Shown piece by piece: positions 1 through 33,431 of a DNA stretch of 64,000 nt. A program made the position numbers and the translations under genes. Below the pieces are notes generated by a model. The model saw only the letters and a program-made list of their open reading frames with translations, was not told where the DNA came from and ran no database searches. This stretch comes from Alphaproteobacteria bacterium (lineage in GTDB: Bacteria; Pseudomonadota; Alphaproteobacteria; Rs-D84): the NCBI GenBank assembly GCA_017535105.1, contig JAFXUI010000001.1:11207-75206 (forward strand). Reading direction: 5' to 3'. Each line of letters starts with the position of its first letter. Positions within the stretch are counted from its first letter, which is position 1.

Positions 1-1132
1 TATAGAGATCGTGGAAATTTGCTGTTTTTTCTTTTACATTCCAAAAATAATCTGGATTTACAGAATCTAAAATCTTGTCGTGAACAATCAAGCGCGGTGT
101 TATTGACCCCGAAAAACTGACCGTTGTGTATATCGCGGTTATACGACCACCCGTCATATCCAAACTTTGGTTCACATCTAAAATCGCGCTTTTACTGCCA
201 CTGTTTATCGACAACCCCGACAAATTCAACGTATTTGTCCACAGGTCCGCAACAGTCACACTTGAAAACTTACCAACATCTGCCAACAACAATGTTCCAG
301 CAATTTCCATCGTTTTTGCGTCTGCTGACAAATTACCAATACACGTTGCGTTTTTCGTGTCCAGCACACTGTCAATCGTTGTACGATTTGCAAACACAAC
401 CTTATCTGCGGCAATACTGATTGATTTTAATATTTCATCAAAACCCGCCGCTGACGCATCAAAATATTTTACATTTGTTATGTCATGACCACCCAAATTT
501 AATGGTCCTAACATTTTTGCATCGTCTGAATTTTCCGATGGTTCGCGCCACAGGTATAACGCATTATCACGACTGACCGATGTTGTGGTAATGATTCCAT
601 CGGGCGCATTAATACCAATATCCATTGTGTCGGTGTGCCACGCACCAAATGTTCCATACGCATGCGTTCCATCAATAAAGCCCATCTTGTCGCCACCAAC
701 AGCCATTATTTGTTGGGTGCGCAATGGACTTATTGTTGAGTCCGTCATAACAACAACACCTTGTAATGTTGCTTGCCCAATTGCGTCCGAAGATTTCAAA
801 ACACGTAATTGGTATTTATCGGCGTTTTCTTCAACAATATTTTGTGGAATACCAAAGTCAACCAAATCTGCGATTTCAACACGCGCAATGTTTTTACCCG
901 CCACGGTCAACAATTCTTCACGATTGGCAACAATATATCTTTCAAGTGCGCCTTCGACATCTTGCATTTCGCGCGCAATCGCAATATTTTCCGCACGCAC
1001 CACAGAGTCCTGTTGATACTTGAACAAGAATGGCAACACAACCGCGACAATTGCCACACACATCAGCAATTCAATCAGCATGCCACCATGCTGTGATTTA
1101 TGATGCGAAAAAATTCTGCTTCTGTTTATCAT
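1..1132 (-). CDS. Large prepilin-type N-terminal domain protein (pilin-like or pseudopilin-like); 5' portion, C-terminus lies beyond the window start
   Basis: Reverse-strand frame is open from position 1 to an ATG at 1132..1130. Hand-translated N-terminus is MINRSRIFSHHKSQHGGMLIELLMCVAIVAVVLPFLF. It has a Gly-Gly then a hydrophobic stretch with Glu at +4/+5, i.e. a class-III (prepilin peptidase) signal. Its ATG overlaps the TGA of the upstream gene (ATGA overlap). It is not in the ORF track because its stop is outside the window. Confidence 0.5.
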   Translation of the reverse strand, partial: MINRSRIFSHHKSQHGGMLIELLMCVAIVAVVLPFLFKYQQDSVVRAENIAIAREMQDVEGALERYIVANREELLTVAGKNIARVEIADLVDFGIPQNIVEENADKYQLRVLKSSDAIGQATLQGVVVMTDSTISPLRTQQIMAVGGDKMGFIDGTHAYGTFGAWHTDTMDIGINAPDGIITTTSVSRDNALYLWREPSENSDDAKMLGPLNLGGHDITNVKYFDASAAGFDEILKSISIAADKVVFANRTTIDSVLDTKNATCIGNLSADAKTMEIAGTLLLADVGKFSSVTVADLWTNTLNLSGLSINSGSKSAILDVNQSLDMTGGRITAIYTTVSFSGSITPRLIVHDKILDSVNPDYFWNVKEKTANFHDLY

Positions 1133-2349
1133 TGTCCGCTTGTGTACCCCGTTGGAATATATTCTTGCCACCCGTCTGACATAATTGCGCCAAACTCTTC
1201 GGTCTTTGGTACGGTTGGCATTTTAGTACGCGTAATATTCAATTCTGTAAAACTTGGTGGGTTGGTTGATGGAAAATACCACGACCCCAATTTTATCGGC
1301 GAAGTTGTAGACATCATAAGTTCGCCCGAAACCGTCAACCCAAAGTTTTCAAAAAACATTATTTCGTCTGTATTCAAGTATGACGTATATACCGAACCAG
1401 CACTTATTCCCGCAAAACCACTTATTGTTTTGGAACTGCTGGATTTCAGATTTAAATTTTGTGCAACGTTTAACGAATTTGTGACAGTTGCTTTATCGGC
1501 AATGATGCGACCCGATGTCGAATAACCACGATTATTTAACTTGGCCGCGTAAATATTTCTGAACCCGATAACATCTTCGGTTACACGTAAAGAGCCAATC
1601 GAAACATTGTTACCCGTCATATTCGCACCATTGGAAAAATACACCGATTGCGCTGTCAAATCTTCGGATTCAACAAAGGTCGATGTAACATCACGCACAC
1701 GCAGTGCCGATGCAAACACACCACCAATATCGTACATGTTGTATCCGCCCATATTCAAATCACGATGCATAACATTCAAATCATCATCGCCCGATGTACC
1801 ACGATGTAAAAACTTTGTGTTATCTTCGTTTGTCACATTACGCGTAATACGATATATCAAATCACCCGCTGAAAAATCTGGGGCAACAACCGCCCACGTA
1901 CGACCATAGGCAACACCGTCCATACCAACAATTGCCGCGTCATCACCAATATGATGTGCAATATTCGCCGCACGCAAATTTGTTGAACCCATATCAAATG
2001 CTAAATATACATCTGTGACCGAAGTACCATTCACAACGTATTTATCAATAAAGCCCGCATTTGCACCACTGGCCAACATTTCCAAATCTTTTTCACTCAT
2101 TCTTATTTGTACGACATCGGGCCAAGTGTCTTGATTTAAACGGATAAAATTTAATATCTCTGGTCGCAAATCAATTATGTTATGCGCAATTGCCATATCG
2201 CGAATATTGTTGTTTGTTTCGGAAATTTGTGAATACACGAACGGCATGGCAATTGCAACAATTGCCATCGACATCAGCACTTCTAACATGCTGGCGCCAC
2301 GATTTTTACTGTCAAAAATCTTCGTTTTAAACACAGCCACCCTTACCAC
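1129..2349 (-). CDS. Large prepilin-type N-terminal domain protein (406 aa), Asn/Gly/Ser/Thr-rich and adhesin-like
   Basis: N-terminus is ...NRGASMLEVLMSMAIVAIAMPFVY, with G(-1) and Glu at +5 in a hydrophobic helix. The rest is rich in N, G, S and T. It overlaps both flanking pilin-like genes. Confidence 0.5.
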   Translation of the reverse strand: MVRVAVFKTKIFDSKNRGASMLEVLMSMAIVAIAMPFVYSQISETNNNIRDMAIAHNIIDLRPEILNFIRLNQDTWPDVVQIRMSEKDLEMLASGANAGFIDKYVVNGTSVTDVYLAFDMGSTNLRAANIAHHIGDDAAIVGMDGVAYGRTWAVVAPDFSAGDLIYRITRNVTNEDNTKFLHRGTSGDDDLNVMHRDLNMGGYNMYDIGGVFASALRVRDVTSTFVESEDLTAQSVYFSNGANMTGNNVSIGSLRVTEDVIGFRNIYAAKLNNRGYSTSGRIIADKATVTNSLNVAQNLNLKSSSSKTISGFAGISAGSVYTSYLNTDEIMFFENFGLTVSGELMMSTTSPIKLGSWYFPSTNPPSFTELNITRTKMPTVPKTEEFGAIMSDGWQEYIPTGYTSGQ

Positions 2350-3685
2350 TTAACAAACATTGTTTGATATCTATTCTTTTTTCCAACCTTTGCCAATATA
2401 CAAATTGGCATATTATGTATTGCGACAAAGATTGAGAATTATAAACACCGTCCAGTGATGTGATTATCGATTTACAATCAACCGTTGTACTGTCGTTCGC
2501 AGATGGATTCTTTAATATTCTAAATGCGGAATTATCAATTGTGCCAATACGCACGTCTGGTAAAATCGATGTTCCAGCGGGCCGTATATCCAACACCGCC
2601 ACACCACTGCCACCACGCGACAATGATTCAGACGTCTGGTCACGCAGCGTTATATTTGACGCGTGAATAATATCCGTATCAATACCACTGTTACTGCTGT
2701 ATTCCAGTGTGTCGGAATTAATATACACGTCTTGCCCACGCGCAACGTTTAAAAAAGAATCAACTTCTAACCGTTCTGTTGCAAAGTTTATTTTACTGGA
2801 CACCAGGTTGCCATGAATATTCCATTTTGCCGGTCCATAAAAACCCGTACGTCCCTCCGCCATTGAAAAATCATAAACACCCGCAGAATCAAGTGTTATG
2901 TTTCCTGTATCCCCATAACGAGAAACCGTCCGAAACGATGCGTTATCCACAATCATTGTTCCACGAACCAGTGACAATGCGCCCTCACCCGTTTTAGATT
3001 GAAAGATTGTTTTATCGGCGGCCATTGTCACAATTTTATTACGAACCTTGCGATCTGTTTCCAAACCGTTTATGTTTAACACCCCTATTTCTGAACCATC
3101 AAAATTACCACGCCGTGCAACCGCACGACCAACGTCTGAAATTGAATTGTCGTCCATATCCAAATCAACCAAGAAAGCACTGGAATCTATATCGGGTTCA
3201 TTTCTGCGCACAACATCAGAATACAACGTTTCCAACGGCACACCAACCTGGATTGAACCGTCACCCATATCTTTGGCATAAAAACCAATTCGGCGCACCA
3301 ATTCGGTACGCGACATAGTATTCAAATCACCACCCGTTAATTCAACATATGCGGATATTTCAACCGGGGTTTTATTTATTACCAAAATCATCTGTTGCCC
3401 CAGTGCTGTCTTCGGAACAAACCCCAGTGGCAAACCATAGGGTTCCAACATATCGGCAAAAGATTTTCCGGCAATCACAGTACGGTCATACGGCAACGCA
3501 GAAGCATTTTCCCGAATAAAAATTCGTGCCGCAGTTGTTGCATTATCTATTTTTTGCGTTGTCGCATACATGTGCGCATTGTTGTCGCGTTCCAGCAATT
3601 TTACGGCAAAAAACGGGATAAACATGAACAGCAGCGTCACCGCCAGCAATGCTTGCAGCAGAAAGTTTCCACGACTGTTATGCAA
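2327..3685 (-). CDS. Large exported or membrane-anchored protein (452 aa) with a degenerate pilin-like N-terminus; first gene of the three-gene minus-strand cluster
   Basis: N-terminus is MHNSRGNFLLQALLAVTLLFMFIPFF, a Gly then a hydrophobic helix with Gln instead of Glu at +5. It overlaps the downstream gene by 23 nt. I recognise no known domain. Confidence 0.35.
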   Translation of the reverse strand: MHNSRGNFLLQALLAVTLLFMFIPFFAVKLLERDNNAHMYATTQKIDNATTAARIFIRENASALPYDRTVIAGKSFADMLEPYGLPLGFVPKTALGQQMILVINKTPVEISAYVELTGGDLNTMSRTELVRRIGFYAKDMGDGSIQVGVPLETLYSDVVRRNEPDIDSSAFLVDLDMDDNSISDVGRAVARRGNFDGSEIGVLNINGLETDRKVRNKIVTMAADKTIFQSKTGEGALSLVRGTMIVDNASFRTVSRYGDTGNITLDSAGVYDFSMAEGRTGFYGPAKWNIHGNLVSSKINFATERLEVDSFLNVARGQDVYINSDTLEYSSNSGIDTDIIHASNITLRDQTSESLSRGGSGVAVLDIRPAGTSILPDVRIGTIDNSAFRILKNPSANDSTTVDCKSIITSLDGVYNSQSLSQYIICQFVYWQRLEKRIDIKQCLLSGKGGCV

Positions 3686-3841
3686 AATTTTATCCCTCCT
3701 ACATACATAAGATTAGCAATACAAAAAAAATATTGCAATTAGTTTTAAGATGCTTTATTATTGCGAATGTTGAAAGAACGTGGGTACGATAAACGTATAT
3801 TGTTGCCCATAAAAAATGTTTTCCTGATAAAAGAAAAAAAC

Positions 3842-4141
3842 ATGCAAAATAAAAAAAATCAAACGTCTAATGTCGGACAAATGATTCAACGCTGTCACAA
3901 ATGGCGTCAGAAAAGAAAACAATACATTGATTTGGCACGTCAAACGACTGATGAAATCGAACGCGAACGCTTGTTACAAGCGGCGGAACATTATGGTCGT
4001 ATTGTAAATGCCGAACAAGAAAAAATCGATTCTACGCGTGGGGCAACGGGCGAAAAAATACCAGATACAATTACCGATGTCGCTGAATCTGGGGACGAAG
4101 AAGAAATCCCATTACCCGACTTTATTGAAAACTTGAAATAA
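3842..4141 (+). CDS. DUF4167 family protein (conserved small alphaproteobacterial protein)
   Basis: The segment RQKRKQYIDLARQTTDEIERERLLQAAEHYGRIV matches the DUF4167 signature (...YLQLARDA...AENYLQHAEHYFRI). The start is ambiguous: the ORF track uses TTG at 3761, and ATGs occur at 3767 and 3842. Confidence 0.5.
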   Translation: MQNKKNQTSNVGQMIQRCHKWRQKRKQYIDLARQTTDEIERERLLQAAEHYGRIVNAEQEKIDSTRGATGEKIPDTITDVAESGDEEEIPLPDFIENLK

Positions 4142-4176
4142 TTGTTATTTCGGCGCACTTTTATTGTTGAAATTTG

Positions 4177-4210
4177 ACTTCCTTTTGCTATTCTGGACGC
4201 AAAAGGAAGT
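4177..4210 (+). promoter_or_regulatory. Perfect 12 bp hairpin followed by a T-tract that contains the dnaX Shine-Dalgarno; terminator of the upstream gene and/or a structure occluding the ribosome-binding site
   Basis: acttccttttgc (4177-4188), loop tattctggac, gcaaaaggaagt (4199-4210), then tttgat and ATG at 4217. The AAGGAAG Shine-Dalgarno lies in the 3' arm. Confidence 0.4.
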
Positions 4211-4216
4211 TTTGAT

Positions 4217-5740
4217 ATGGATAGTAACTACACCGTTTTAGCCCGTAAATACCGCAGTCAAGATTTTGCATCGCTTATTGGCCAAGATGTTTTGGTAAAA
4301 ACATTGACCACGGCGATAAACACTGGACGTATTGCACACGCATATATTTTCACCGGAATTCGTGGAACTGGTAAAACCAGTACGGCACGTATCTTGGCCA
4401 AGGCATTGAACTGTTTATCGTCAAACGGACCAACCGCAACACCGTGCGGGGTTTGTGAAAACTGCCGGGCAATTGCGGCGGGGCAACACATTGACGTAAT
4501 GGAAATTGACGCGGCGTCACATACCGGCGTTGATAATATGCGCGAAATATTGGACGCGGTCCAATACCGTCCGACAAATGGTCGTTATAAAATCTATATC
4601 ATTGACGAAGTCCACATGTTATCAATCAGTGCTTTTAACGCACTGCTTAAAACACTGGAAGAACCCCCTGCACACGTTGTGTTTATTTTGGCAACAACCG
4701 ATATACGCAAGGTACCAGTTACAATTTTATCACGTTGCCAGCGTTTTGATTTGGTGCGTGTACCAGTTGAAACATTGAAAAAACATTTCGCCAACATTGC
4801 TGAAAATGAAAAGATTGAATTGACCGATGCCGCAAATGAATTATTGGCACGTGCCGCCGATGGTTCGGTCCGTGACGGTTTGTCGTTACTTGACCAGGCA
4901 ATTGCCCAAACAGGTGGACACGTTGATGAAACAGCGGTCTTAAACATGCTTAAACGTGCCGATCGTAGTGTTGTTATGTCGGTTATGGAAACAATACTTT
5001 CGGGCGACACTGCAACCGCATTGGAACGCATTGATGAAATCTATAATAACGGCGCTGATTTATCTATGTTGCTTACCGATATGATGGAATGGACACATTG
5101 GGCAACACGTATGCACCCGGCACTTCACGCGGGCGATTGTGCATCGGCACCATATACACCGGACCAGCGCGCAAAAATTCGTGATATAAATTCACACACG
5201 TCATTAAACACCCTGTCCAGATTATGGCAGGTTATGGTTGCATCGGTCTCAGAGATGCAAGCCGCGGGCAATCAAAAACAATGTTTTGATATGTTGGTTG
5301 TGCGTATGATGCATATTGCGGAAATGCCATCTGTTGCTGAAATATTGAAAAAGCAACCAAGTGCGTCAGCTGCGCAACCAAAGGCACCAGCGACACCAGC
5401 CAAACCGAAAATCACATCGGCGACCGAATTGGCAAGTGCGCTTCAGGCTGATAAAGAAATTTTGATGTATTCGTATTATACTTCGAATATTGAGGTTTCT
5501 GAATTCACTGATGGTCACATTGTATATTTTGACCGTGGTAACGATGATGACTTTGCACAGAAATTAACCGCATGGTTGAACAAAAAGACAGACAAGATTT
5601 GGTCACTGGAACGTGTAACAAAATCTGAACACGCGCAAACCGTCACCGAACAGCGACATGATGAAATTGTATCGGACCCAATGGTCGCAGACGCAATGAG
5701 TTTGTTTGAAGATGCCGAAATTATCGATTCAACAAAATGA
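4217..5740 (+). CDS. dnaX: DNA polymerase III subunit gamma/tau
   Basis: The N-terminus YRSQDFASLIGQDV...HAYIFTGIRGTGKTSTARILAKALNC carries the Walker A motif, followed by a Cys zinc module and the DEVHML sensor motif. Confidence 0.95.
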   Translation: MDSNYTVLARKYRSQDFASLIGQDVLVKTLTTAINTGRIAHAYIFTGIRGTGKTSTARILAKALNCLSSNGPTATPCGVCENCRAIAAGQHIDVMEIDAASHTGVDNMREILDAVQYRPTNGRYKIYIIDEVHMLSISAFNALLKTLEEPPAHVVFILATTDIRKVPVTILSRCQRFDLVRVPVETLKKHFANIAENEKIELTDAANELLARAADGSVRDGLSLLDQAIAQTGGHVDETAVLNMLKRADRSVVMSVMETILSGDTATALERIDEIYNNGADLSMLLTDMMEWTHWATRMHPALHAGDCASAPYTPDQRAKIRDINSHTSLNTLSRLWQVMVASVSEMQAAGNQKQCFDMLVVRMMHIAEMPSVAEILKKQPSASAAQPKAPATPAKPKITSATELASALQADKEILMYSYYTSNIEVSEFTDGHIVYFDRGNDDDFAQKLTAWLNKKTDKIWSLERVTKSEHAQTVTEQRHDEIVSDPMVADAMSLFEDAEIIDSTK

Positions 5741-5752
5741 TGGGGGGATATT

Positions 5753-6211
5753 ATGAGACAAGAACACGGACGTTCACTGATTGAAATTATCGGGGTGTTG
5801 GCCATTGGTGCGGTTATGTCGGTCGCAACAATCGCGATGTACGGCCAGATTCGCACGACCCAAATTCGTACAGTTGCAACAGCGGAACTGGAACAGATTG
5901 TCAAAGACGTGAAATTACTTACTGGTGCACGTGGCACGTATGAGGGTGTTTCGGTTGAATACTTGGTCAAGGCGGGCGCATTAAAATCAACACGTTCACC
6001 ATTGGGTGGCGAAGACTGGTCTGTCAACCCCAGTTTTGATGGTGCATCTTTCTCAATCAACTTAACCGAACTTTCTGCCGATGAATGTGCTTACTTTTCA
6101 ACCAAGCAACCAACATGGGCGAATGCTATTTTAATAAACGGTTATGAGATTGACGAAAGCCAGCACTGTTTTTCAACAAACACCAATCAGATTTCTTTCA
6201 TAGTGGAATAA
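5753..6211 (+). CDS. Type IV pilin-like protein (152 aa) with an atypical +1 residue
   Basis: MRQEHG|RSLIEIIGVLAIGAVMSVATIAMYGQ matches the type IV pilin N-terminal helix consensus (xTLIELMIVVAIIGILAAIAIPQY), but has Arg at +1 instead of Phe or Met. There is Glu at +5 and a C-terminal Cys pair (ADEC...QHCF) like a D-region disulfide. Confidence 0.55.
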   Translation: MRQEHGRSLIEIIGVLAIGAVMSVATIAMYGQIRTTQIRTVATAELEQIVKDVKLLTGARGTYEGVSVEYLVKAGALKSTRSPLGGEDWSVNPSFDGASFSINLTELSADECAYFSTKQPTWANAILINGYEIDESQHCFSTNTNQISFIVE

Positions 6212-6212
6212 A

Positions 6213-6887
6213 TTGAAAATAAAAAATTTATTTTTGATATCTGTTTTACTTGTTGCGGGTTGCGTAACGTATCACAGTCCCGACCGTGACACGTGGGGAA
6301 CGTACCTGCGCGGTGCAAGTTTTGACAGTATGACCGAAACATCACGCACCGCAAAACGTCCGGTGTTTTTGGGTGCGGGCGGAAAAACCATCTCACAAAT
6401 TAAACACAGCGAAAAATACGAATATGGGGACAAGGCAACAAATGATACCGCGCTGGCGGTTGCCTATATGGCCGATTTAGAATTCGCACTGTATGATGCA
6501 TTACGCAAACCCGGCATATCGGTCCAGCGTGCCGGCACCGACGTCGTTGTAATTTTGGTGCGTGATGCGATAATGGAATTGGACGTTGCCGACATTTCCC
6601 GTGACGGCGCCGATACATTAAAAACCATTTCCAAGATATTAAATAAATACGATGCAACATTTATCGAAATTGCTGGATATACCGATGCAACACGTGACAC
6701 ACGTGCCGCCAATGCACTTTCCAGCGATATGGCATCACGTACCGCGGTATTTTTGGCACAACACGACATTATACCACAACGAATGTTCATTGTTGGCCGT
6801 GGTTCATCGCGCCCCATTGCCGCCCAGGACGATGTGGGACGCTTAACAAACCGGCGGGTTGAAATACGCATTTCGCCAGCGCGATAA
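6213..6887 (+). CDS. OmpA/MotB-family peptidoglycan-binding lipoprotein
   Basis: It has a lipoprotein signal (LLVAGC) and a C-terminal OmpA-like domain (IEIAGYTD...NRRVEIRI). It uses a TTG start and lies immediately downstream of the pilin-like gene. Confidence 0.7.
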   Translation: MKIKNLFLISVLLVAGCVTYHSPDRDTWGTYLRGASFDSMTETSRTAKRPVFLGAGGKTISQIKHSEKYEYGDKATNDTALAVAYMADLEFALYDALRKPGISVQRAGTDVVVILVRDAIMELDVADISRDGADTLKTISKILNKYDATFIEIAGYTDATRDTRAANALSSDMASRTAVFLAQHDIIPQRMFIVGRGSSRPIAAQDDVGRLTNRRVEIRISPAR

Positions 6888-6972
6888 AGGGGCAAAAACG
6901 GAATAACTTTCTCTTTTATTTTTGTTTTTTTATTGCTATACTGGCGACAACCAATAAACAAAGGAAGAAAAA

Positions 6973-7635
6973 ATGGTACAAAACAAAACTAAACAAGCAA
7001 AAACAAACTATGCAAAAATTGGTATCGTTGCGGCAATTGTCGTTGCGGTCGCGATTCTTGGTGTTGTCATTGTCAACGCGGTAAGTCATCACGGTGGTGT
7101 ATCCGTTGATCGTGCGGTTGAATCAATATCGTCCGATGCTGCAACTGGTGCAGATTTGCGTATCGCATTGGTTCGTATGGACGCAATTCAATCCGAAGCC
7201 AACGCATTACAAGATTTGCGTAAACAACGTGAATCGTATGAAAGCAAACTGCGTGATGAATTGACCGCCGAACAAAAGAAACTGGAAAAAGAAAAAGCAG
7301 AAATTGAAAAATCCCAAGACGTGTTGTCCCAGGACGCTTTGCAACGCCGTGTTGCCGACTATCAAAGACGCGTTACAAAATTGCAACGTGATTTGACAGA
7401 ACGTGCACAAAGCATTGAAACTTCTTATCAAAAGGCTTTACAAGATATCCAAGCAAAACATTTGGATCCGGTTATCGAAGGCATCATCGCGAAAAAGAAC
7501 TTGTCATTGGTAATTGACGGCCGTTTTGCACGTATGGGCGCAAATGCACAAAACTTGGACATCACAGATGACGTTGTTTCTGCGTTGAACAAGAAAGTGT
7601 CCAAGGTTAAAATGGAAAAACCAAAAGGTTTCTAA
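6973..7635 (+). CDS. skp: Periplasmic chaperone Skp (OmpH family)
   Basis: It has a signal or anchor helix and a coiled-coil OmpH-like body, and sits directly upstream of lpxD-fabZ, the conserved position. Confidence 0.8.
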   Translation: MVQNKTKQAKTNYAKIGIVAAIVVAVAILGVVIVNAVSHHGGVSVDRAVESISSDAATGADLRIALVRMDAIQSEANALQDLRKQRESYESKLRDELTAEQKKLEKEKAEIEKSQDVLSQDALQRRVADYQRRVTKLQRDLTERAQSIETSYQKALQDIQAKHLDPVIEGIIAKKNLSLVIDGRFARMGANAQNLDITDDVVSALNKKVSKVKMEKPKGF

Positions 7636-7736
7636 TCCTAAAACCTATAAACAACTTGAAAACGTCGCGATTGCGGCGTTTATCATTTGTGTAATATTTT
7701 CTTTTATTTTGATATTTCATCGTCTATAATTCCAGC

Positions 7737-8795
7737 ATGTTAAATATAATTAAATTTTTTATGGCACCCAAGGGGGCCAAGAAAACAGCCGGCCAATTGG
7801 CCGAGTTGTTTGGTTTGGAATTACGTGGCGATGCGAACGCAACCGTCAATGGTGTTGCGCCAATCGCAGATGCAAAACCGGGACAACTTGCGTTCTATTC
7901 CACTGAACAAAACAGTGCCGCGTTCAAGATATTACCACTATCGGTTTTGGAAAATACGCGCGCAACGGTGATTTTGGTTCAGCCGGAAATGGCGAAACAC
8001 GCTCCAAAGGGGGCGACACTGCTTATCACCGACACGCCACGCGGAAACATTGTAAAAATTTTGGGTGAAATATACCGTGAAAAACCACGCTTTGGCATCA
8101 GCAGTGATTCCCACGTTGAACGCGGTGTATTTTTCCGCAAAAAAAGCACCGTCTATGTTGGACACTTTGCGACAATTGAACGTGGCGCGGTTATTGAACC
8201 AGACGTCAAGATTTACCCAGGCGCATTTATCGGCCGCAACGTTACAATTGGACGCGGAACAATCGTCCAGACGGGCGCACATATTGAAAACGCAACAATT
8301 GGTGCCGATTGTGTAATTCACGCCGGCGCGGTTATTGGCAAGGACGGTTTTGGCTATACCCGCCAAGATGGTCATAACGTGTTTATTCCACACGTTGGTC
8401 GTGTTGTTTTGGGCGACCGCGTTTCTGTGGGCGCAAACACTTGTATCGACCGCGGTGTTATGACCGACACACGTGTTGGTGATGGAACAAAGATTGATAA
8501 CCTGTGCCAGATTGCACACGGTGTTGTAATCGGGTCCGAATGCTTCTTGGCATCGGGCGTGGGTCTGGCCGGCGGTACGGTAATTGGCGACCGCGCATTA
8601 TTGGGTGGCCACGTTGGCGTTGCAAATGGAATTCATATCGGTAATGATGCCGAAGTTGGCGCACAATCGGGCGTATTTCGTAATATCCCCGATGGCGATC
8701 GTCAAATGGGCTTTCCAGCGGTACCGGGGCTTGAATTCTGGCGTCAATATGCGTGGCTTAAAAACAATTCTAAAAAACCAGCAGGCAAAAAATGA
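7737..8795 (+). CDS. lpxD: UDP-3-O-acylglucosamine N-acyltransferase
   Basis: It has left-handed beta-helix hexapeptide repeats (GAFIGRNVTIGRGTIVQTGAHIENATIGADCVIHAGAVIG) and lies in the skp-lpxD-fabZ context. An alternative start is at 7761. Confidence 0.9.
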   Translation: MLNIIKFFMAPKGAKKTAGQLAELFGLELRGDANATVNGVAPIADAKPGQLAFYSTEQNSAAFKILPLSVLENTRATVILVQPEMAKHAPKGATLLITDTPRGNIVKILGEIYREKPRFGISSDSHVERGVFFRKKSTVYVGHFATIERGAVIEPDVKIYPGAFIGRNVTIGRGTIVQTGAHIENATIGADCVIHAGAVIGKDGFGYTRQDGHNVFIPHVGRVVLGDRVSVGANTCIDRGVMTDTRVGDGTKIDNLCQIAHGVVIGSECFLASGVGLAGGTVIGDRALLGGHVGVANGIHIGNDAEVGAQSGVFRNIPDGDRQMGFPAVPGLEFWRQYAWLKNNSKKPAGKK

Positions 8796-9550: not shown

Positions 9551-10297
9551 TTATTTCGTATGTTGTTTATACCAATCCAACGCATTTTTCAGATAATCGC
9601 GCGCCAAATCCAGATTCATTGACCCAGTCGCGTCGCGCAAGCGTCCCTCGGCATCTATCCATGTATCATAATCTGCCGGGACAACATTTGCGATCTTGCC
9701 CAACGTGTCGCTAACTTTTGTTGGTGATATTCCCCCCGCATATCCAAACTGAATATCCTTATACACTGGCGCAAGTCGCTTTTTTGGTGCGATGCCAGCA
9801 CCATATGATTCATCAAACAACAAAGTGAACTGGGCGCCAGTAATTTTCAATTCTTCTATTTGGGGTTTTGTAATACTGTTATACGCCAATATAACCTCAT
9901 ATTTTTTCCACTTTGATATCAGGTCAGCCAATTTTCGCGCGTTAAATTCGTGTGCATAATCGCCAATATTTAATTGGATTCTGGAAATCAACGGCTGATC
10001 AGTATAAGAATGTTTTTGTTTCAGAAAATGTTTTATTTCGCCCGGTATATTGCCAGTACAAATTTCATCACACCATTTATAATTCACGTGTAATGCAAAG
10101 TTTAGTGGTTCTTTTGACTCTTTGGCATATTCAATCACCTTGTTAAACCAAGTGTACATTTCTTTACCTTTGGACATAGTTGATGGGAACACTTGAATTC
10201 CTAATTCTGCTAATGGAAACGATTTTAACAAACCAACTACTTTTACCGGTTCCAGATTTTCACGCGGATCCGAACATGTTATATACCGAAGTCTCAT
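9551..10297 (-). CDS. Conserved hypothetical protein, paralog A of the MRLRYITCSDPRE family (248 aa)
   Basis: It shares N-terminal MRLRYITCSDPRE and multiple blocks (HVNxxWCxEIC, FxLLxDxSxGxGxxP, GYxGGxSPxxV, IWIDAEGxLx, LARxY) with the ORF at 11349..12101. The synonymous codons differ, so conservation is at the protein level. There is a weak resemblance to the phosphate-binding (beta-alpha)8 barrel motif xxGGxSPxNV of TrpF-like or CutC-like enzymes. Confidence 0.6.
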   Translation of the reverse strand: MRLRYITCSDPRENLEPVKVVGLLKSFPLAELGIQVFPSTMSKGKEMYTWFNKVIEYAKESKEPLNFALHVNYKWCDEICTGNIPGEIKHFLKQKHSYTDQPLISRIQLNIGDYAHEFNARKLADLISKWKKYEVILAYNSITKPQIEELKITGAQFTLLFDESYGAGIAPKKRLAPVYKDIQFGYAGGISPTKVSDTLGKIANVVPADYDTWIDAEGRLRDATGSMNLDLARDYLKNALDWYKQHTK

Positions 10298-10433: not shown

Positions 10434-11081
10434 ATGAAGAAAGTATTACCATTGTTTATGGCCGGTGCGATACTGGCGGGTTGCACAACAACAAACCCAT
10501 ACACCGGCGAACAACAAACATCTAAATTGGTTTGGGGCACGGCGATTGGTACCGCGGCGGGCGCAGCAACCGGCGCAATTGTATCCAAGGATAAGGGCAA
10601 AGGCGCATTGATTGGTGCGGCGGCTGGTGCGGCACTGGGCGGTGGCGTTGGTTATTATATGGATACCCAAGAGGCCGAATTACGTAAAGAACTTGAATCA
10701 ACCGGTGTTCGCGTTGCACGTGACGGCGACAATATCCGTTTAATTATGCCGGGCAATATTACATTCCAAACAGATTCAGCAGATATCAATTCTGGATTCT
10801 ATGCAACATTGAATTCGGTTGCCAAAGTATTCAAGAAATACAGCGATACAACCGTTATGGTGTTGGGCTATACCGACAGCACTGGCAGCGTAGAATACAA
10901 CCAAACATTGTCGCAAAAACGCGCACAATCGGTTGCATCATACCTTATTGGCCAGGGTGTAAAATCATCACGATTTGAGGTTATGGGCATGGGCATATCA
11001 AATCCAATTGCATCAAACAGCACCGCGGCGGGTCGTCAGCAAAATCGCCGTGTTGAAATCAAAATTATTCCAAACAAATAA
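10434..11081 (+). CDS. OmpA-family lipoprotein with an N-terminal glycine-zipper domain (YiaD-like)
   Basis: It has a lipoprotein signal (ILAGC) and a Gly/Ala zipper (GTAIGTAAGAATGAIV...GAAAGAALGGGVGYY), followed by an OmpA C-terminal domain (VMVLGYTDSTGS...NRRVEIKI). Confidence 0.8.
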   Translation: MKKVLPLFMAGAILAGCTTTNPYTGEQQTSKLVWGTAIGTAAGAATGAIVSKDKGKGALIGAAAGAALGGGVGYYMDTQEAELRKELESTGVRVARDGDNIRLIMPGNITFQTDSADINSGFYATLNSVAKVFKKYSDTTVMVLGYTDSTGSVEYNQTLSQKRAQSVASYLIGQGVKSSRFEVMGMGISNPIASNSTAAGRQQNRRVEIKIIPNK

Positions 11082-11124: not shown

Positions 11125-11370
11125 TTATCTCTGTTTTACAAAATCACGAAACATAATATTTTTTGTATTTGCTTTCGCATCAGCAAGCATATTGTTATTT
11201 TCTTTTTTCTCTATAATATCTGGTTCTGCTTTTGGTTTACGACGGTACAACAAACAACAACCCAACGCTATGGCCCCCAATGCCAACCCAGAGGCAATCA
11301 CTAATGTTCTTATAATTTCTTTGGAGTATTTATTCATTTTGTTTTCCTTTATCTTTGTCTGTTTATCCAT
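11125..11370 (-). CDS. Small hypothetical membrane protein (81 aa)
   Basis: It is a Lys-rich peptide with one predicted transmembrane helix (LVIASGLALGAIALGCCLLY). It may be spurious. Confidence 0.3.
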   Translation of the reverse strand: MDKQTKIKENKMNKYSKEIIRTLVIASGLALGAIALGCCLLYRRKPKAEPDIIEKKENNNMLADAKANTKNIMFRDFVKQR

Positions 11371-12101
11371 TTGTCTGCTTTCATAATATATTGACGTGCA
11401 AGTTCACAATCAAATTTGTCGTTGGTTTTCAATTTCCCTTCGGCATCAATCCAAATGTCTTCACGATTCTTTGGCACGACCGATGAAATCTTTCTTAAAT
11501 TTTTCACAACATTTTTCGGTGACATTCCGCCCGAATATCCCATCGGCACGCTGTCATATACTGGCTTGTTCCATGTGCCTGGTGTCAAACCACGTCCACC
11601 AGACGCATCATAAAGCAACGAAAACTTTGCGCCCATTTCATATAATACCCATGCGGCATTTTTTGTTCGGTCATTATACTGCAAAATAAATTCATGGTCG
11701 TCATTGTGCAGGAATAATTTTTTTACCGCATCATAATTTATATCACGAACGGCGGTGTTTGACATATTTAACTGCCAGCGTTTAACCAATGGTGAAAAGC
11801 CCAAGTTTTTACGATAAAGCCCAAAGAATTCCCGTAATTCCATTGGAATTTCACCGGTACGACAAATTTCTTCGCACCATTCTTGGTTTACGTGCACCGC
11901 CAAATTTATGTCATGGGCATCACGTACACAATAACGGCACAATTCATGAAACCATTCATTACGTGGCATACCCGGGGACGCCTTGGACGGATGCATTTGC
12001 ACCGCAATTTCTGCACGTGGCGAACTTTCTGCCAATTTTACAATATCATGAAAATCATTAAATTCACGCGGGTCAGAACAAGTGATGTATCTCAGTCGCA
12101 T
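11349..12101 (-). CDS. Conserved hypothetical protein, paralog B of the MRLRYITCSDPRE family (250 aa)
   Basis: The evidence is the same as for paralog A. Its start overlaps the 3' end of rlmN by 29 nt. Confidence 0.6.
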   Translation of the reverse strand: MRLRYITCSDPREFNDFHDIVKLAESSPRAEIAVQMHPSKASPGMPRNEWFHELCRYCVRDAHDINLAVHVNQEWCEEICRTGEIPMELREFFGLYRKNLGFSPLVKRWQLNMSNTAVRDINYDAVKKLFLHNDDHEFILQYNDRTKNAAWVLYEMGAKFSLLYDASGGRGLTPGTWNKPVYDSVPMGYSGGMSPKNVVKNLRKISSVVPKNREDIWIDAEGKLKTNDKFDCELARQYIMKADKWINRQR

Positions 12102-21243: not shown

Positions 21244-21272
21244 AAAAAACGCCCGTTTGGGCGTTTTTTTAA
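21244..21272. terminator. Bidirectional rho-independent terminator (A-tract, GC hairpin, T-tract)
   Basis: aaaaaaaacgcccgtttgggcgttttttt lies between convergent infB and the virD4-like gene. Confidence 0.7.
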
Positions 21273-23524
21273 TCTATAAATTCTTTCAATTCACCGGTGG
21301 CGGGGTTATATACACGTGGTTTTCCCTTGTACCCCATAATCGCGTGATGTGATGGAATTAAAAACTCTGGCAATGGTGACGATTCCCCCATTTGAACCTT
21401 TGCGTTTAATGCTTTCTGTACTGGTGTTTTATCCAAGAAATATCTTTCTTGGGACGCTTCAATCGGTCGATTGTAATACCCTTGGTATATAATTATTTGT
21501 TTACTATCTTCCAGTTTCATAATATCCATTGGCGAATACAATAATTCTGGTGATTTTTCTTCTTTATCTTTACCGTCTGCACCCTTAACCGTTTTAAGTT
21601 TTATTTTTTCGCCCATCATATCCGAAAAACGTTTTGCGGTATCTGGGTCGTTTTGACGCATAACAATTTTTGCCGCCGTTGTTGATATAATGGTATCGGC
21701 CGCATCTGCGCCATACTTTTCGCGAATCTGGTGGATATCTTGACCGATGATAAGGTATGAAATCTTTTGACCACGTCCAAGGTCCGGTCCCTGAATCACG
21801 GCTTGCAATTTCATCATCTTTGGCATTTCGTCCAAAACAAACAATACTGGGTATGGTCCCATTTTTTTACCGTCGTGTTCAGAATCTGGCGCATTTGCCA
21901 ACAAGAAATTCGACATCAATTCAATAAAGATACCAGTAATTGGGTTTAACGCCTCAGCATCAACCATGTTGATAGACAGGTACACCGAAACAGGTTTAAT
22001 TTTGCCATCGCGTGGGTCAACCATTCCACGCAGGTCGCTGAAATGAAAATCAGAATGACTTGTACGATTACGCACCGCGGCATTACGGAAAATCGACAAG
22101 CCCGCCATAATGGTTGATAAAATTGAACCACGTTCTTTATCTGGTGTATTCGCAAGTTGCGTCAGTTCCAAAATCGCACGATGCGAATATGCATATCGGC
22201 GTGCTTCATCAACCGCACCCATAAATACATCTTTTAATGGGTCCGCCATCATAACCATTTGGTCACCGGCACGGCGGCGTTCTTCGATATCTTGGGCAAC
22301 CGCCAATTCAGCCGCATTTAACCAGTCCAAAATCATTGACAATGATGCTTCTTTACCCACCCAAGCGTCTGGTATGTGTTCCCATGTACCAACATGAACA
22401 TAGTTTGATTCATTTAATTCGCCACGTTGTAACATTGCCACCGCCGCATATGCATTTGGATCTTCGGTCATAGACAGGTAATAATCGGTCAAAACAGCTG
22501 CATCATCTGAATTAAACTCACCTGATTTAAAACGTGCATAGAAATAATCATCGGCCTTGGCACGTTCAATCTTTGACACAATAAAACTGATAAAACCAGA
22601 CAGCCCCGCACGACCAGTAATTCCCCAGTGTGGATCCTTTGGCGTTTCTTGGACTAAAACATTACAAATCGTGTCTATATACAAATCGCGCTGTTCTGGA
22701 TTAAATGGTACGTGTTCTGGGGACAACGGATTCCAAGATGGATAGTAAATTCCGCGTTCAGGATCGTCTTGACCCGCCCAGTTCATAATAAACACCGGAC
22801 CAACAGTTGAACGATATGCTGATGTTTTTTGTTTCAATTCTGGTTTCGGGTCATTGATAATCATTGAAACATTGTCACATTCAACAATAGTCGGGACAAC
22901 AACACCCGCTGTTTTACCAGTTCCCGGGGGCGCAACGCATAACGCAGACAAAGATTCGTCAAACATCAACGGCATCATTTTGCCCTTGTTCTTGAAATAC
23001 CCCAAAACCATCATAAAGCCATTGAATAAGCCTTCTTTGTTTTTATGGTCTTGCGCCATTTCTCTGATATCTGCGGCGGTTGCCTTGCGCGAAGATTTTT
23101 CGTCCAACTTATCTTTTTCATTTGGGTTAAATTCGGAAACAAGCGTCTTGTCCGCCATAATGTAATACGCGATTATAGGAAGCAATGGCGCCATACACGC
23201 CATATCGGTGTACATAACACAGCGCACAACCCACGATGGAATTTCCGCAATTACTGACATACCAAGCGTTGATAACGCATTATGTAAATAAACACTTGTC
23301 CACACGGAACTTGCCGGTGACCAACCATACCGCCATACGTGTTCCAGTATGAACGACAGGCCAAACGCAAGCGCACAAACAACCCATACAGCCAAGACCC
23401 AGCGCAACTCCCAAAAAACACGCGCCATTGGGATACGTTGGTGTTCCTTGTAAGACGCCGAATTAAAAATATTCAGACCCTTACCTTTGCCACCTGCGGA
23501 TAAAATCTTGAACTGCCCTGCCAT
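21269..23524 (-). CDS. virD4: Type IV secretion/conjugation coupling protein (VirD4/TraG/TraD family ATPase)
   Basis: It is 751 aa with an N-terminal membrane region, a Walker A motif (VAPPGTGKTAG) and a Walker B-like motif (VLFVLDEMPKM), and has the overall length and architecture of a type IV coupling protein. Confidence 0.72.
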   Translation of the reverse strand: MAGQFKILSAGGKGKGLNIFNSASYKEHQRIPMARVFWELRWVLAVWVVCALAFGLSFILEHVWRYGWSPASSVWTSVYLHNALSTLGMSVIAEIPSWVVRCVMYTDMACMAPLLPIIAYYIMADKTLVSEFNPNEKDKLDEKSSRKATAADIREMAQDHKNKEGLFNGFMMVLGYFKNKGKMMPLMFDESLSALCVAPPGTGKTAGVVVPTIVECDNVSMIINDPKPELKQKTSAYRSTVGPVFIMNWAGQDDPERGIYYPSWNPLSPEHVPFNPEQRDLYIDTICNVLVQETPKDPHWGITGRAGLSGFISFIVSKIERAKADDYFYARFKSGEFNSDDAAVLTDYYLSMTEDPNAYAAVAMLQRGELNESNYVHVGTWEHIPDAWVGKEASLSMILDWLNAAELAVAQDIEERRRAGDQMVMMADPLKDVFMGAVDEARRYAYSHRAILELTQLANTPDKERGSILSTIMAGLSIFRNAAVRNRTSHSDFHFSDLRGMVDPRDGKIKPVSVYLSINMVDAEALNPITGIFIELMSNFLLANAPDSEHDGKKMGPYPVLFVLDEMPKMMKLQAVIQGPDLGRGQKISYLIIGQDIHQIREKYGADAADTIISTTAAKIVMRQNDPDTAKRFSDMMGEKIKLKTVKGADGKDKEEKSPELLYSPMDIMKLEDSKQIIIYQGYYNRPIEASQERYFLDKTPVQKALNAKVQMGESSPLPEFLIPSHHAIMGYKGKPRVYNPATGELKEFID

Positions 23525-29388: not shown

Positions 29389-29415
29389 AAACACCGGCAA
29401 ATGCCGGTATTTTTT
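29387..29415. terminator. Palindromic bidirectional terminator (ACCGGCA family)
   Basis: aaaaacaccggcaaatgccggtatttttt. Confidence 0.7.
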
Positions 29416-30649: not shown

Positions 30650-30699
30650 GACAATTTATAGCATAAAAAATCCCCACTTTCGTGGGGATTGAAATCTTA

Positions 30700-33251: not shown

Positions 33252-33348
33252 AAAACTCTCTCTTTATCCCCTGTTATGAGAGTCAATATAGCAATTTTTA
33301 TGTTGAATTACAAATATTTTTTGTCTAGGATTCAAGGGCAAAATAAAT

Positions 33349-33422
33349 GGCCAGATGGCAGAGTGGTTATGCAGAGGACTGCAAATCCTTGTATGCCGGT
33401 TCGATTCCGACTCTGGCCTCCA
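33349..33422 (+). tRNA. tRNA-Cys (anticodon GCA)
   Basis: The cloverleaf was read by hand. The anticodon loop is CTGCAAA, it closely resembles bacterial tRNA-Cys, and the CCA is encoded. Confidence 0.88.
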
Positions 33423-33431
33423 AATTTTATT

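What the first reader, a model, noticed from the sequence alone, without database searches (positions are those of the whole stretch)
5753..6887. Stand-alone type IV pilin-like gene with Arg at +1, paired with an OmpA-family lipoprotein directly after dnaX
The 152 aa product matches the type IV pilin N-terminal alpha-helix consensus almost residue for residue (LIEIIGVLAIGAV...IAMYGQ) and has a C-terminal Cys pair like the D-region. The residue after the putative cleavage Gly is Arg, not the near-universal Phe or Met. That would prevent canonical N-methylation, so it may mark a diverged processing system or a non-pilus use of the pilin fold. It occupies the locus where ybaB-recR normally follow dnaX; ybaB is relocated next to pnp here. 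It is translationally coupled to an OmpA-like peptidoglycan-binding lipoprotein. Together with the left-edge trio, this suggests a dispersed pilin-like repertoire.
Basis: partly seen in the sequence, partly recalled or inferred. Interest (0 to 1): 0.6.

Follow-up and report, generated by a model that had tools for sequence, protein, structure and literature searches.

The report
Arginine-first type IVb pilin, Enterousia
This gene most likely encodes the main building block of a hair-like surface filament (a type IVb pilus) in Candidatus Enterousia, a tiny-genome gut bacterium; it is a real but unannotated variant whose first mature residue is always arginine, and it belongs to a pilus system scattered around the chromosome.

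Summary
ORF 5753-6211 (+) encodes a 152 aa protein starting MRQEHG|RSLIEIIGVLAIGAV. An OmpA-type lipoprotein gene (6213-6887) starts one base after its stop codon.

- **Conservation:** G-1, R+1, S+2 and E+5 are invariant in 120/120 close homologues. R+1 is also present in 131/137 distant relatives.
- **Fold:** the AlphaFold model best matches the type IVb pilins TcpA, CofA and PilS.
- **Lineage:** Candidatus Enterousia (order Rs-D84, genomes under 1 Mb).
- **Not an orphan:** distant "GRS" pilins sit inside complete R64-like type IVb pilus clusters. Enterousia itself carries a conserved PilO-PilP-ATPase-platform module. In two species this module lies directly downstream of pilin-OmpA-skp.
- **Minor pilins:** the three large pilin-like genes at the left edge are conserved candidates, and one has Gln at +5.

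Best reading: this is the major pilin of a dispersed, R64-like type IVb pilus.

Unresolved:
- No prepilin peptidase was found.
- A secretin was seen in only one relative.
- The OmpA partner's role is inferred from tight coupling alone.
- The claim that Arg+1 blocks N-methylation is not supported.

I rate it a new variant of a known kind, of moderate interest.

The parts
5753..6211 (+). Candidate major type IVb pilin, 152 aa. It has a 6-residue leader (MRQEHG), a predicted cleavage site G6|R7, Glu at +5, and two invariant Cys residues (C112, C139).
   Evidence: The ORF and motif are, and the invariant columns. Pfam PilS scores 19.1 bits and N_methyl 15.2 bits, both below threshold. The AF2 model has pLDDT 78.8. 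The top Foldseek hits are TcpA (TMq 0.64-0.74), CofA and PilS. Pairwise alignment to a plasmid pilin (RG|FSLLE) places R7 on Phe+1.
6213..6887 (+). OmpA_C-type peptidoglycan-binding lipoprotein, 224 aa, with a TTG start 1 nt after the pilin stop. It is a possible anchor or partner of the pilus system, but that role is inferred only.
   Evidence: Pfam OmpA scores E 1.7e-10. The profile matches YiaD (2k1s, E 1.5e-20) and PA0833. The gene is adjacent to the pilin in 80/80 genomes. In 70 of 75 measured genomes the gap is between -4 and +1 nt. The pairing is kept in a relative with about 40% pilin identity.
2327..3685 (-). Large pilin-like protein, 452 aa, with the conserved N-terminus G|[NS]FLxQ and Gln at +5. 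It is a candidate tip minor pilin.
   Evidence: In alignment A2, G6, N7, F8 and Q11 are invariant. It is present in 75/80 loci. It has no Pfam, NCBIfam or PDB sequence match.
1129..2349 (-). Large pilin-like protein, 406 aa, with the N-terminus G|ASMLEV. It is a candidate minor pilin or adhesin.
   Evidence: N_methyl scores 18.1 bits and TIGR02532 14.9 bits, both below threshold. In alignment A3, G18, A19, S20 and E23 are invariant. It is present in 70/80 loci. The single-sequence AF2 model was unusable, with pLDDT 31.
1..1132 (-). Third large pilin-like protein, cut by the window edge; its orthologues are 437-450 aa. The N-terminus is HG|GMLIELLM. It is a candidate minor pilin.
   Evidence: The translation is, and its ATG overlaps the upstream stop codon. 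The orthologue alignment A4 has G, L and E invariant. The profile touches the geopilin N-terminal helix at E 0.033. It is present in 69/80 loci.

Best explanation
The 152 aa protein is the major subunit of a type IVb pilus related to the R64/IncI 'thin pilus' (PilS family). Its genes are scattered over the reduced chromosome of Candidatus Enterousia.

**Inferred mechanism.**
1. The prepilin inserts into the inner membrane through its hydrophobic N-terminal helix.
2. A prepilin peptidase, not yet identified, cuts after Gly6 and leaves Arg as residue 1.
3. A PilQ-like ATPase and a PilR-like platform protein, together with PilO- and PilP-like proteins, extract the subunits and stack them into a filament whose core is made of the N-terminal helices.
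4. Glu5 neutralises the N-terminus of the neighbouring subunit, and Ser2 hydrogen-bonds to it, as in TCP.
5. The three 400-450 aa pilin-like proteins encoded divergently upstream of dnaX prime or tip the filament and probably carry adhesin domains. The one with Gln at +5 is the likely tip subunit.
6. The co-translated OmpA-type lipoprotein probably ties part of the apparatus to peptidoglycan and the outer membrane. This step is the weakest.

The likely use is attachment to partner or host cells, or cell-cell contact for the co-resident VirB/VirD4 system.

**Shown:** the gene, its motif, the fold, the homology, the conservation, and the presence and occasional adjacency of the machinery.

**Inferred:** cleavage, assembly, the roles of the minor pilins and OmpA, and the biological use.
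For: **Motif and conservation.** GRSLIE is present in 120/120 close homologues. G6, R7, S8, L9, E11, Y30, C112 and C139 are invariant in alignment A1. R is at +1 in 131/137 distant representatives.

**Fold.** The AF2 model has pLDDT 78.8 with a 50-residue N-terminal helix plus a beta-sheet. The top PDB matches are all type IVb pilins: TcpA 8uhf (E 4e-5, TMq 0.64-0.74), CofA and PilS. The profile against PDB sequences touches TcpA across residues 8-118, including the first Cys.

**Homology to PilS.**
- Distant GRS pilins carry precomputed Pfam Bundlin and PilS hits.
- The L091 GRS pilin matches IncI plasmid 'type 4 pilus major pilin' in 1366 plasmid records.
- The window pilin aligns with a plasmid pilin so that R7 falls on Phe+1.

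**Machinery.**
- L091 and L092 carry TcpQ-like, secretin, PilO, a coiled-coil protein, a 560 aa ATPase, T2SSF, a GRS pilin and a PilT-like ATPase.
- Enterousia MAGs L048 and L076 carry dnaX-pilin-OmpA-skp-PilO-PilP-ATPase-T2SSF.
- L093 and L094 carry the same four-gene module.
- The ATPase is 85-100% identical across at least 120 clusters.
- The ATPase and the pilin lie on one 134.8 kb contig.
- PilO matches plasmid 'pilO2 type 4b pilus protein'.
- The PilP-like protein matches TIGR03021 at 27 bits.
- The ATPase is 33-37% identical over its full length to IncI and Bosea type IVb cluster ATPases.

**Minor pilins.** They are conserved, with class-III-like N-termini, and one has Gln at +5.

**Evolutionary rates.** The pilin and the minor pilins evolve fastest (54-59% identity to the window). 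The neighbours are at 69-75%, and the ATPase at 85% or more against the L048 ATPase, as expected for exposed filament proteins.
Against: - No A24 prepilin peptidase was found. The G.GD.K. motif is absent from all 178 held loci, 2.77 Mb in total, although these are redundant around two neighbourhoods. Pfam scans of about 55 window ORFs were also negative.
- A secretin was seen only in one lower-GC relative, L154, and not in Enterousia proper.
- The window itself holds no assembly genes, so their presence in this exact genome is inferred from relatives.
- The Pfam and NCBIfam hits of the window pilin are below the curated cut-offs.
- A charged +1 residue, a 6-residue leader and a 146 aa mature size are all atypical for type IVb pilins.
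- OmpA adjacency lies within a block whose whole order is conserved, so it is weak evidence of function.
- There are no expression or protein data.
Confidence: 0.7

Rival explanations
1. The pilin fold is used without a surface filament. The protein stays anchored in the inner membrane by its uncleaved N-terminal helix and works with the co-translated OmpA lipoprotein as an envelope tether or structural protein.
For: - The pilin and OmpA genes are tightly coupled in 80/80 genomes.
- The locus sits among envelope-biogenesis genes: skp, lpxD, fabZ, lptD.
- No peptidase was found, and no secretin in Enterousia proper.
- Arg at +1 is unprecedented.
Against: - Gly-1, Ser2 and Glu5 are invariant. 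These residues matter for cleavage and for filament packing, not for a simple signal anchor.
- Homologous GRS pilins lie inside complete type IVb clusters.
- Enterousia keeps a highly conserved assembly ATPase and platform, which would otherwise have no substrate.
- Outside Rs-D84, GRS pilins have no OmpA neighbour.
Confidence: 0.1
2. The filament is real, but it acts as a short periplasmic endopilus or an uptake machine rather than an adhesive surface pilus. It would resemble a type II secretion piston or a competence-type DNA or nutrient uptake pilus, feeding a bacterium that cannot make nucleotides or amino acids.
For: - The lineage lacks many biosynthetic pathways and standard transporters (PMC12306168).
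- The ATPase scores best against the GspE model.
- No secretin has been found so far in Enterousia proper.
- The pilin is small, with a short leader, like type IVa and pseudopilins.
Against: - The accessory proteins are of the PilO2/PilP (R64/PAPI-1) type, not GspC/L/M.
- The fold matches TcpA, CofA and PilS, not GspG.
- GspG and GspJ models score no more than 14 bits.
- Three 400-450 aa minor pilins resemble the adhesin-bearing PilV, TcpB and CofB in size and not in sequence.
- A relative does carry a PilN-type secretin near the module.
Confidence: 0.15
3. The OmpA lipoprotein is only a neighbour. It would be a general YiaD/Pal-like envelope protein, co-transcribed with the pilin because of operon compaction in a shrinking genome, with no role in the pilus.
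For: - The whole roughly 10-gene block, including dnaX and skp, is equally conserved.
- Its C-terminal domain is a generic YiaD/PA0833-type OmpA_C domain.
- The window has two further OmpA-family genes.
- GRS pilins in other lineages lack such a neighbour.
Against: - The spacing of 0 to -4 nt is kept even where pilin identity has fallen to about 40%.
- The N-terminal 70 residues are unique and highly conserved.
- Peptidoglycan-binding OmpA-like lipoproteins are known parts of other envelope machines, such as DotK/IcmN, which it matches at 31.9 bits.
Confidence: 0.45

Closest known systems
PilS, the major pilin of the R64/IncI (and IncI2 TP114, PAPI-1 PilS2) conjugative type IVb 'thin pilus'
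   Same: - It shares the Pfam PilS/Bundlin-type fold family.
- The same accessory set occurs in the lineage: PilO/PilO2, PilP, a PilQ-type ATPase, a PilR-type platform and large PilV-sized minor pilins.
- In relatives there is also a TcpQ/PilL-like lipoprotein and a PilN-type secretin.
- A VirB/VirD4 system co-occurs with it.
   Different: - Arg at +1; to my recollection R64 PilS has Trp there, and the plasmid pilins seen here have Phe.
- The leader is 6 residues rather than about 20.
- The mature protein is 146 aa rather than roughly 180-200.
- The genes are chromosomal and split into at least three or four loci among housekeeping genes.
- There are three large minor pilins and no shufflon.
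- No pilT, pilU or pilN was found next to the module.
- It is paired with an OmpA lipoprotein.
TcpA (Vibrio cholerae toxin-coregulated pilus) and CofA (ETEC CFA/III), which are type IVb major pilins
   Same: - These are the best structural matches (TMq 0.57-0.74).
- Ser/Thr2 and Glu5 are present, there is no Pro22, and glycines occur in the N-terminal helix.
- There is a C-terminal Cys pair.
- The profile alignment reaches the first D-region Cys of TcpA.
   Different: - Only 12-18% identity.
- About 50 residues shorter.
- A short leader.
- Arg instead of Met at +1.
- The machinery is of the R64 type, not the Tcp or Cof type.
Type IVa pilins (PilA/PilE)
   Same: Short leader, a size of about 150 aa, and the G|xxxxE motif with Tyr24.
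   Different: - No Phe1 and no Pro22.
- The fold is closest to type IVb.
- No PilM, PilN or PilY1-type genes were seen. The PilO- and PilP-like proteins present are of the R64 type, not type IVa PilO/PilP.
Type II secretion major pseudopilin GspG
   Same: A class III signal peptide, small size, and a GspE/GspF-family ATPase and platform.
   Different: - No GspG model hit.
- No GspC, GspL, GspM or GspK.
- Its globular domain is TcpA-like, with a disulfide pair, rather than the calcium-binding GspG fold.
YiaD / PA0833 / Pal-type OmpA_C lipoproteins (for the partner gene)
   Same: A lipobox, and a C-terminal OmpA_C domain with the conserved TD...LS...R peptidoglycan-binding motif.
   Different: - It has a unique, conserved 70-residue N-terminal region.
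- It lacks the glycine-zipper of YiaD.
- It is fixed immediately downstream of a pilin gene.

Membership tests
Type IV pilin superfamily (class III signal peptide proteins) | Gly at -1, Glu at +5 and about 20 hydrophobic residues forming the N-terminal half of a long alpha-helix | tested here: met
   The sequence is MRQEHG|RSLIE IIGVLAIGAVMSVATIAMY. G6 and E11 are invariant. The AF2 model has a helix over residues 9-58.
Type IV pilin superfamily (class III signal peptide proteins) | Match to the curated N-terminal methylation-site models (Pfam N_methyl PF07963, TIGR02532) | tested here: inconclusive
   PF07963 scores 15.2 bits against a cut-off of 21.2, with E 0.016. TIGR02532 is not listed. 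The Arg at +1 departs from the model consensus.
Type IV pilin superfamily (class III signal peptide proteins) | Hydrophobic residue (Phe, Met, Leu, Val) at +1 | tested here: not met
   Arg at +1 in 120/120 close and 131/137 distant relatives. It aligns with Phe+1 of a plasmid pilin.
Type IV pilin superfamily (class III signal peptide proteins) | Cleavage and N-methylation by an A24 prepilin peptidase | not testable with these tools
   No peptidase gene was found in the window or in 2.77 Mb of related loci, by motif scan only. Whole genomes could not be scanned, and there are no protein data.
Type IVb pilins (PilS / bundlin / TcpA class) | Type IVb globular-domain topology | tested here: met
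   Foldseek ranks 1-14 are all TcpA or CofA, and PilS is at rank 16. E-values reach 4e-5 and TMq 0.74.
Type IVb pilins (PilS / bundlin / TcpA class) | Pfam PilS (PF08805) or Bundlin (PF05307) above the gathering score | tested here: inconclusive
   For the window protein, PF08805 scores 19.1 bits against a cut-off of 22, with E 0.0014. Distant GRS relatives carry precomputed Bundlin and PilS hits.
Type IVb pilins (PilS / bundlin / TcpA class) | Long leader (about 15-30 residues) and a mature length of about 190-200 residues | tested here: not met
   The leader is 6 residues and the mature protein 146 residues. In distant relatives the median leader is 10 residues. The reference feature is from PMC10710030.
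Type IVb pilins (PilS / bundlin / TcpA class) | No Pro22, glycines in the N-terminal helix, and Ser/Thr2 | tested here: met
   Ala is at +22, Gly at +8 and +13, and Ser2 is invariant. The features are as described in PMC10710030.
Type IVb pilins (PilS / bundlin / TcpA class) | C-terminal disulfide-bonded region | tested here: inconclusive
   Two invariant Cys residues, C112 and C139. C112 aligns with the first D-region Cys of TcpA. The bond itself was not tested.
R64-type type IVb pilus system | Linked PilO, PilP, PilQ (ATPase) and PilR (platform) genes | tested here: met
   They are adjacent to the pilin in L048 and L076. The conserved module is in L093 and L094 and in 80 metagenome loci. Supporting hits are Pfam PAP_PilO, TIGR03021 at 27 bits, T2SSE and T2SSF, and plasmid pilO2 matches. 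The module was not found in the window itself.
R64-type type IVb pilus system | PilN-type secretin with a PilL/TcpQ-type lipoprotein | tested here: inconclusive
   Both are present in the L091 cluster. A secretin C-terminus appears in one relative, L154. There were no hits in 80 Enterousia pilin loci or in the other 79 ATPase loci.
R64-type type IVb pilus system | Dedicated prepilin peptidase (PilU) and a PilV adhesin with a shufflon | tested here: not met
   There is no A24 hit in any cluster or neighbourhood seen. Three large minor-pilin-like genes are present instead of one PilV, they show no detectable similarity to Bosea PilV, and no shufflon was seen.
Type II secretion pseudopilin (GspG) | Match to GspG or other pseudopilin models, plus GspC/L/M/D partners | tested here: not met
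   The only hits are gspJ at 11.4 bits and PRK10557 at 13.8 bits. No Gsp-specific partners appear in any locus.
Tad/Flp pilins | A 40-60 residue mature pilin with the Flp motif (G|xxxxEY) | tested here: not met
   The mature protein is 146 residues with a globular domain, and position +6 is Ile or Val, not Tyr.
OmpA_C-like peptidoglycan-binding lipoproteins (partner gene) | A lipobox plus an OmpA_C domain with conserved peptidoglycan-binding residues | tested here: met
   The lipobox Cys17 is invariant. Y156, T157, D158, L169, S170 and R176 are invariant. Pfam OmpA scores 41.6 bits, above the cut-off of 27.2. The profile matches YiaD 2k1s at E 1.5e-20. It falls below the equivalog cut-offs of every named NCBIfam family.

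The most novel reading that the evidence does not exclude
The invariant Arg1 may mark a distinct class of type IVb pilins ('GRS pilins') with its own processing and packing logic. The Arg1 guanidinium lies one helical turn from Glu5 (i, i+4). It could neutralise the buried Glu5 charge in the membrane and in the filament core, making N-methylation dispensable. It might also require a peptidase of altered specificity, or a non-A24 protease. In Enterousia this would be combined with a stripped-down apparatus, possibly without a secretin, tied to the wall by a dedicated OmpA lipoprotein and used for episymbiotic attachment by a bacterium of under 1 Mb.
Probability: 0.12. Interest if true: 0.75.

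Novelty: new variant of a known kind. Interest (0 to 1): 0.5.

Why it matters
1. **An unannotated pilin family.** It defines a large subfamily of type IV pilins: 593 representatives at 50% clustering, all from uncultured gut and Rickettsiales-like Alphaproteobacteria. Its first mature residue is a conserved arginine. This tests assumptions about prepilin-peptidase specificity and about the Glu5 to N-terminus contact in the filament core.

2. **A link to lifestyle.** Candidatus Enterousia, whose published description reports no flagellar machinery and no pili (PMC12306168), retains a type IVb pilus system under strong purifying selection in a genome of under 1 Mb. That makes its proposed partner-dependent lifestyle directly testable, for example through attachment, cell-cell contact with its VirB/VirD4 system, or uptake.

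3. **A lesson for annotation.** Pilus genes dispersed among housekeeping operons escape cluster-based detection.

Tried and rejected
- **Assembly genes in the window.** Pfam scans of about 55 window ORFs found none, only housekeeping genes plus VirD4.
- **Motif scans.** Scans for T2SSE Walker A and the A24 GxGDxK motif over all loci found no peptidase.
- **Stand-alone GRS pilin contexts.** L006, L008, L089 and L090 showed only housekeeping neighbours.
- **Linking pilin and T2SSF to one MAG.** GenBank accession proximity showed no shared MAG among those named.
- **Profiles of the three large pilin-like proteins against PDB sequences.** Nothing matched beyond the N-terminal helix.
- **Structure prediction for the large pilin-like proteins.** The single-sequence model had pLDDT 31 and was unusable.
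- **Promoter and terminator scan.** Results were no better than shuffles, apart from a terminator-like hairpin after skp.
- **Rfam on 3500-8000.** No hits.
- **Literature.** Nothing on pili in Rs-D84 or Enterousia, and the 2023 Enterousia paper is not held.
- **Extending the window's right edge.** This gave no new sequence of use.

**Rejected readings:** T2SS pseudopilin, Flp pilin, and plain signal anchor. The reasons are in the membership table.
Full report
**Observation.** The ORF at 5753-6211 (+) is real. It has an ATG start 12 nt after the dnaX stop, preceded by a GGGGGA run, and encodes 152 aa. The product starts MRQEHG-RSLIE-IIGVLAIGAVMSVATIAMY. That is the class III (prepilin) pattern, with Gly at -1 and Glu at +5, but with Arg where Phe or Met is usual. 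Two Cys residues lie in the C-terminal third.

One base after its stop codon, a TTG opens a 224 aa ORF (6213-6887). That product has a lipobox (LLVAG|C) and a Pfam OmpA domain at E 1.7e-10. dnaX is upstream. ybaB is at 46590-46889, one ORF after pnp. At the left edge there are three large ORFs on the minus strand with pilin-like N-termini: G|NFLLQ, G|ASMLE and G|GMLIE.

**Is it a pilin?** The curated models only graze it: Pfam PilS scores 19.1 bits (cut-off 22) and N_methyl 15.2 bits (cut-off 21.2). The evidence from conservation and structure is stronger.
- There are 453 homologues, and all 120 listed carry GRSLIE.
- In a 28-sequence alignment spanning 58-88% identity, G6, R7, S8, L9, E11, Y30, C112 and C139 are invariant.
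- An AlphaFold2 model built on that alignment (pLDDT 78.8) has a 50-residue N-terminal helix packed on a beta-sheet.
- Its best matches among solved structures are exclusively type IVb pilins: TcpA (E 4e-5, TM 0.64-0.74), CofA, then PilS.
- A profile search of PDB sequences touches the geopilin N-terminal helix. It also aligns with TcpA over residues 8-118, up to the first D-region cysteine.
- A pairwise alignment with an enterobacterial plasmid pilin (MIKIKNNRG|FSLLE...) runs through the globular domain and puts R7 exactly on Phe+1.

**Lineage and family.** A scan of species-representative genomes found the gene in 223 genomes. These are labelled Candidatus Enterousia or "Alphaproteobacteria bacterium" from ruminant, horse and human guts. 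Enterousia (order Rs-D84) has genomes of 0.75-1.0 Mb, lacks most biosynthetic pathways and is thought to depend on partner cells. Its published description reports no flagellar machinery and reports type IV pilus genes only for another lineage (PMC12306168).

An exhaustive profile search found 593 cluster representatives. The distant ones carry GRSM[IV]EMLGVLAI[IV]GVLS, and R is at +1 in 131 of 137. Where they are named, they come from Alphaproteobacteria or Rickettsiales MAGs and are annotated as hypothetical, PulG or PilE.

**Machinery.** The window has no assembly genes, but the family does.
- A distant GRS pilin lies between a T2SSF gene and a PilT-like ATPase gene.
- Following the T2SSF protein led to L091 and L092, which hold a complete R64-like cluster. 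Its order is TcpQ/PilL-like lipoprotein, secretin, PAP_PilO, a coiled-coil protein, a 560 aa ATPase, T2SSF, a PilS-like protein, a 216 aa GRS pilin (Bundlin and PilS hits) and a 321 aa ATPase.
- Searching those proteins against all held loci hit two Enterousia MAGs, L048 and L076. There the order is dnaX, pilin, OmpA, skp, PilO (422 aa), PilP-like (233 aa), ATPase (542 aa, 52% identity), T2SSF (356 aa, 41-44% identity).
- The ATPase is 85-100% identical in at least 120 clusters.
- In other Enterousia the same four-gene module follows lpxK, lpxC and a 138 aa lipoprotein, near virB3 and virB4.
- In one MAG the module lies on the same 134.8 kb contig as the pilin.
- PilO matches plasmid "pilO2 type 4b pilus protein".
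- The PilP-like protein matches TIGR03021.
- The ATPase matches IncI and Bosea type IVb cluster ATPases at 33-37% over its full length.
- The L091 pilin matches IncI "type 4 pilus major pilin" in 1366 plasmids.

**Surroundings.** In 80/80 genomes the order is dnaX, pilin, OmpA. Wherever the flank is long enough, the divergent block rluD, 157 aa secreted protein, Zn-ribbon/TM/DUF3426-like protein and three large pilin-like genes is also present.

The three large proteins keep their N-terminal motifs across species: G|[NS]FLxQ, G|[AS]SxxE and G|[GSN]MLxE. One of them consistently lacks Glu5. From my knowledge of GspK-type tip subunits, that is typical of the subunit that caps a filament. They are PilV/TcpB-sized but have no detectable sequence relatives with solved structures.

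The pilin and these proteins evolve faster (54-59% identity) than their neighbours (69-75%). The ATPase is 85% or more identical to the L048 ATPase across its top 120 clusters.

**The OmpA partner.**
- The pilin stop to OmpA start distance is 0 nt in 49, -1 in 11, -4 in 5 and +1 in 5 of 75 genomes.
- The pairing persists in a relative whose pilin is only about 40% identical.
- The C-terminal domain is of the YiaD/PA0833 type, with the peptidoglycan-binding residues invariant. The N-terminal 70 residues are unique and conserved.
- GRS pilins outside Rs-D84 have no such neighbour, and the whole block is syntenic. A pilus-related role, such as a wall anchor, therefore remains plausible but unproven.

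**Mechanism.** The best-supported reading is that this is the major pilin of a dispersed R64-like type IVb pilus.
- Shown: gene, motif, fold, homology, conservation, and the presence and occasional adjacency of the machinery.
- Inferred: cleavage after Gly6, assembly by the PilQ/PilR/PilO/PilP module, priming or tipping by the three minor pilins, and a role in adhesion or cell-cell contact.

The invariant Ser2 and Glu5 fit the contacts seen in TCP, namely the Glu5 to N-terminal amine salt bridge and the Thr/Ser2 hydrogen bond.

Type IVb pilins have a variable residue 1. From my own knowledge of Strom and Lory (1991), PilD tolerates many +1 substitutions.

**Gaps.**
- No A24 peptidase was found in the window or in 2.77 Mb of related loci, which are redundant around two neighbourhoods.
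- A PilN-type secretin appeared only in one lower-GC relative, about 7 kb upstream of its PilO gene.
- Whole genomes could not be scanned with these tools.

**Novelty.** This is not a new kind of system. It is a new, unannotated variant of type IVb pilin: invariant Arg1, a 6-residue leader, 146 mature residues and an OmpA-coupled gene. It belongs to a fragmented pilus system in a lineage not previously credited with pili.

Noticed in passing
window 21269-23524 (-): A VirD4/TraG-type type IV secretion coupling protein (T4SS-DNA_transf, E 4e-51) sits alone among housekeeping genes. In relatives, virB3 and virB4 lie next to the PilO-PilR module (L093, L094), and TrbC genes flank the L091 cluster. 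A dispersed Rickettsiales-style T4SS may therefore co-operate with the pilus.
   Followed up: partly
window 9551-10297 (-) and 11349-12101 (-): Two paralogous proteins of 248 and 250 aa (41% identity) both start MRLRYITCSDPRE and have no Pfam match. They flank a glycine-zipper/OmpA lipoprotein (10434-11081). The arrangement is conserved in L001 and L002.
   Followed up: partly
window 6213-6887, 10434-11081, 39965-40384: The window holds three separate OmpA-family genes within 64 kb of a genome under 1 Mb. The third, 139 aa on the minus strand, looks Pal-like.
   Followed up: no
window 2327-3685 (-) and orthologues (A2): The 452 aa pilin-like protein has Gln instead of Glu at +5 in every species, and four invariant Cys residues near its C-terminus. 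This is the pattern expected for a filament-capping subunit.
   Followed up: partly
L008 8407-11175: Another gut alphaproteobacterial MAG (GC 37%) carries five tandem GRS-type pilin paralogues, all starting QQSG|RSMIEM. They lie between uvrC and rluD with no assembly genes nearby, which may represent a pilin-variation array.
   Followed up: no
L091 11127-11720: Inside the complete type IVb cluster, a 197 aa protein with a weak PilS hit lacks any G-x-x-x-x-E signal. It sits just upstream of the true GRS pilin.
   Followed up: no
window 33349-33422 vs ORF 33276-34517: A tRNA-Cys gene falls inside the longest ORF call of the recF-like (SMC_N) gene. The Pfam match starts at residue 53, so the real start codon must lie downstream of the tRNA.
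   Followed up: no
window 46590-46889 and 46899-47111: ybaB (99 aa) and an xseB-like 70 aa ORF lie on the plus strand. They overlap a spurious 200 aa minus-strand ORF (46571-47173). A 135 aa protein with no Pfam match separates them from pnp.
   Followed up: partly
L093 7517-7933, L094 6437-6853, L154 7579-7896: A conserved small lipoprotein of 105-138 aa always precedes PilO in the Enterousia module. It has no family match and could be a PilM-like pilotin.
   Followed up: no
window 29414-33251 (-): A MacB-type permease, a membrane-fusion protein and a TolC-like OEP form an efflux operon. The same trio sits next to a stand-alone GRS pilin in a Rickettsiales MAG (L089).
   Followed up: no
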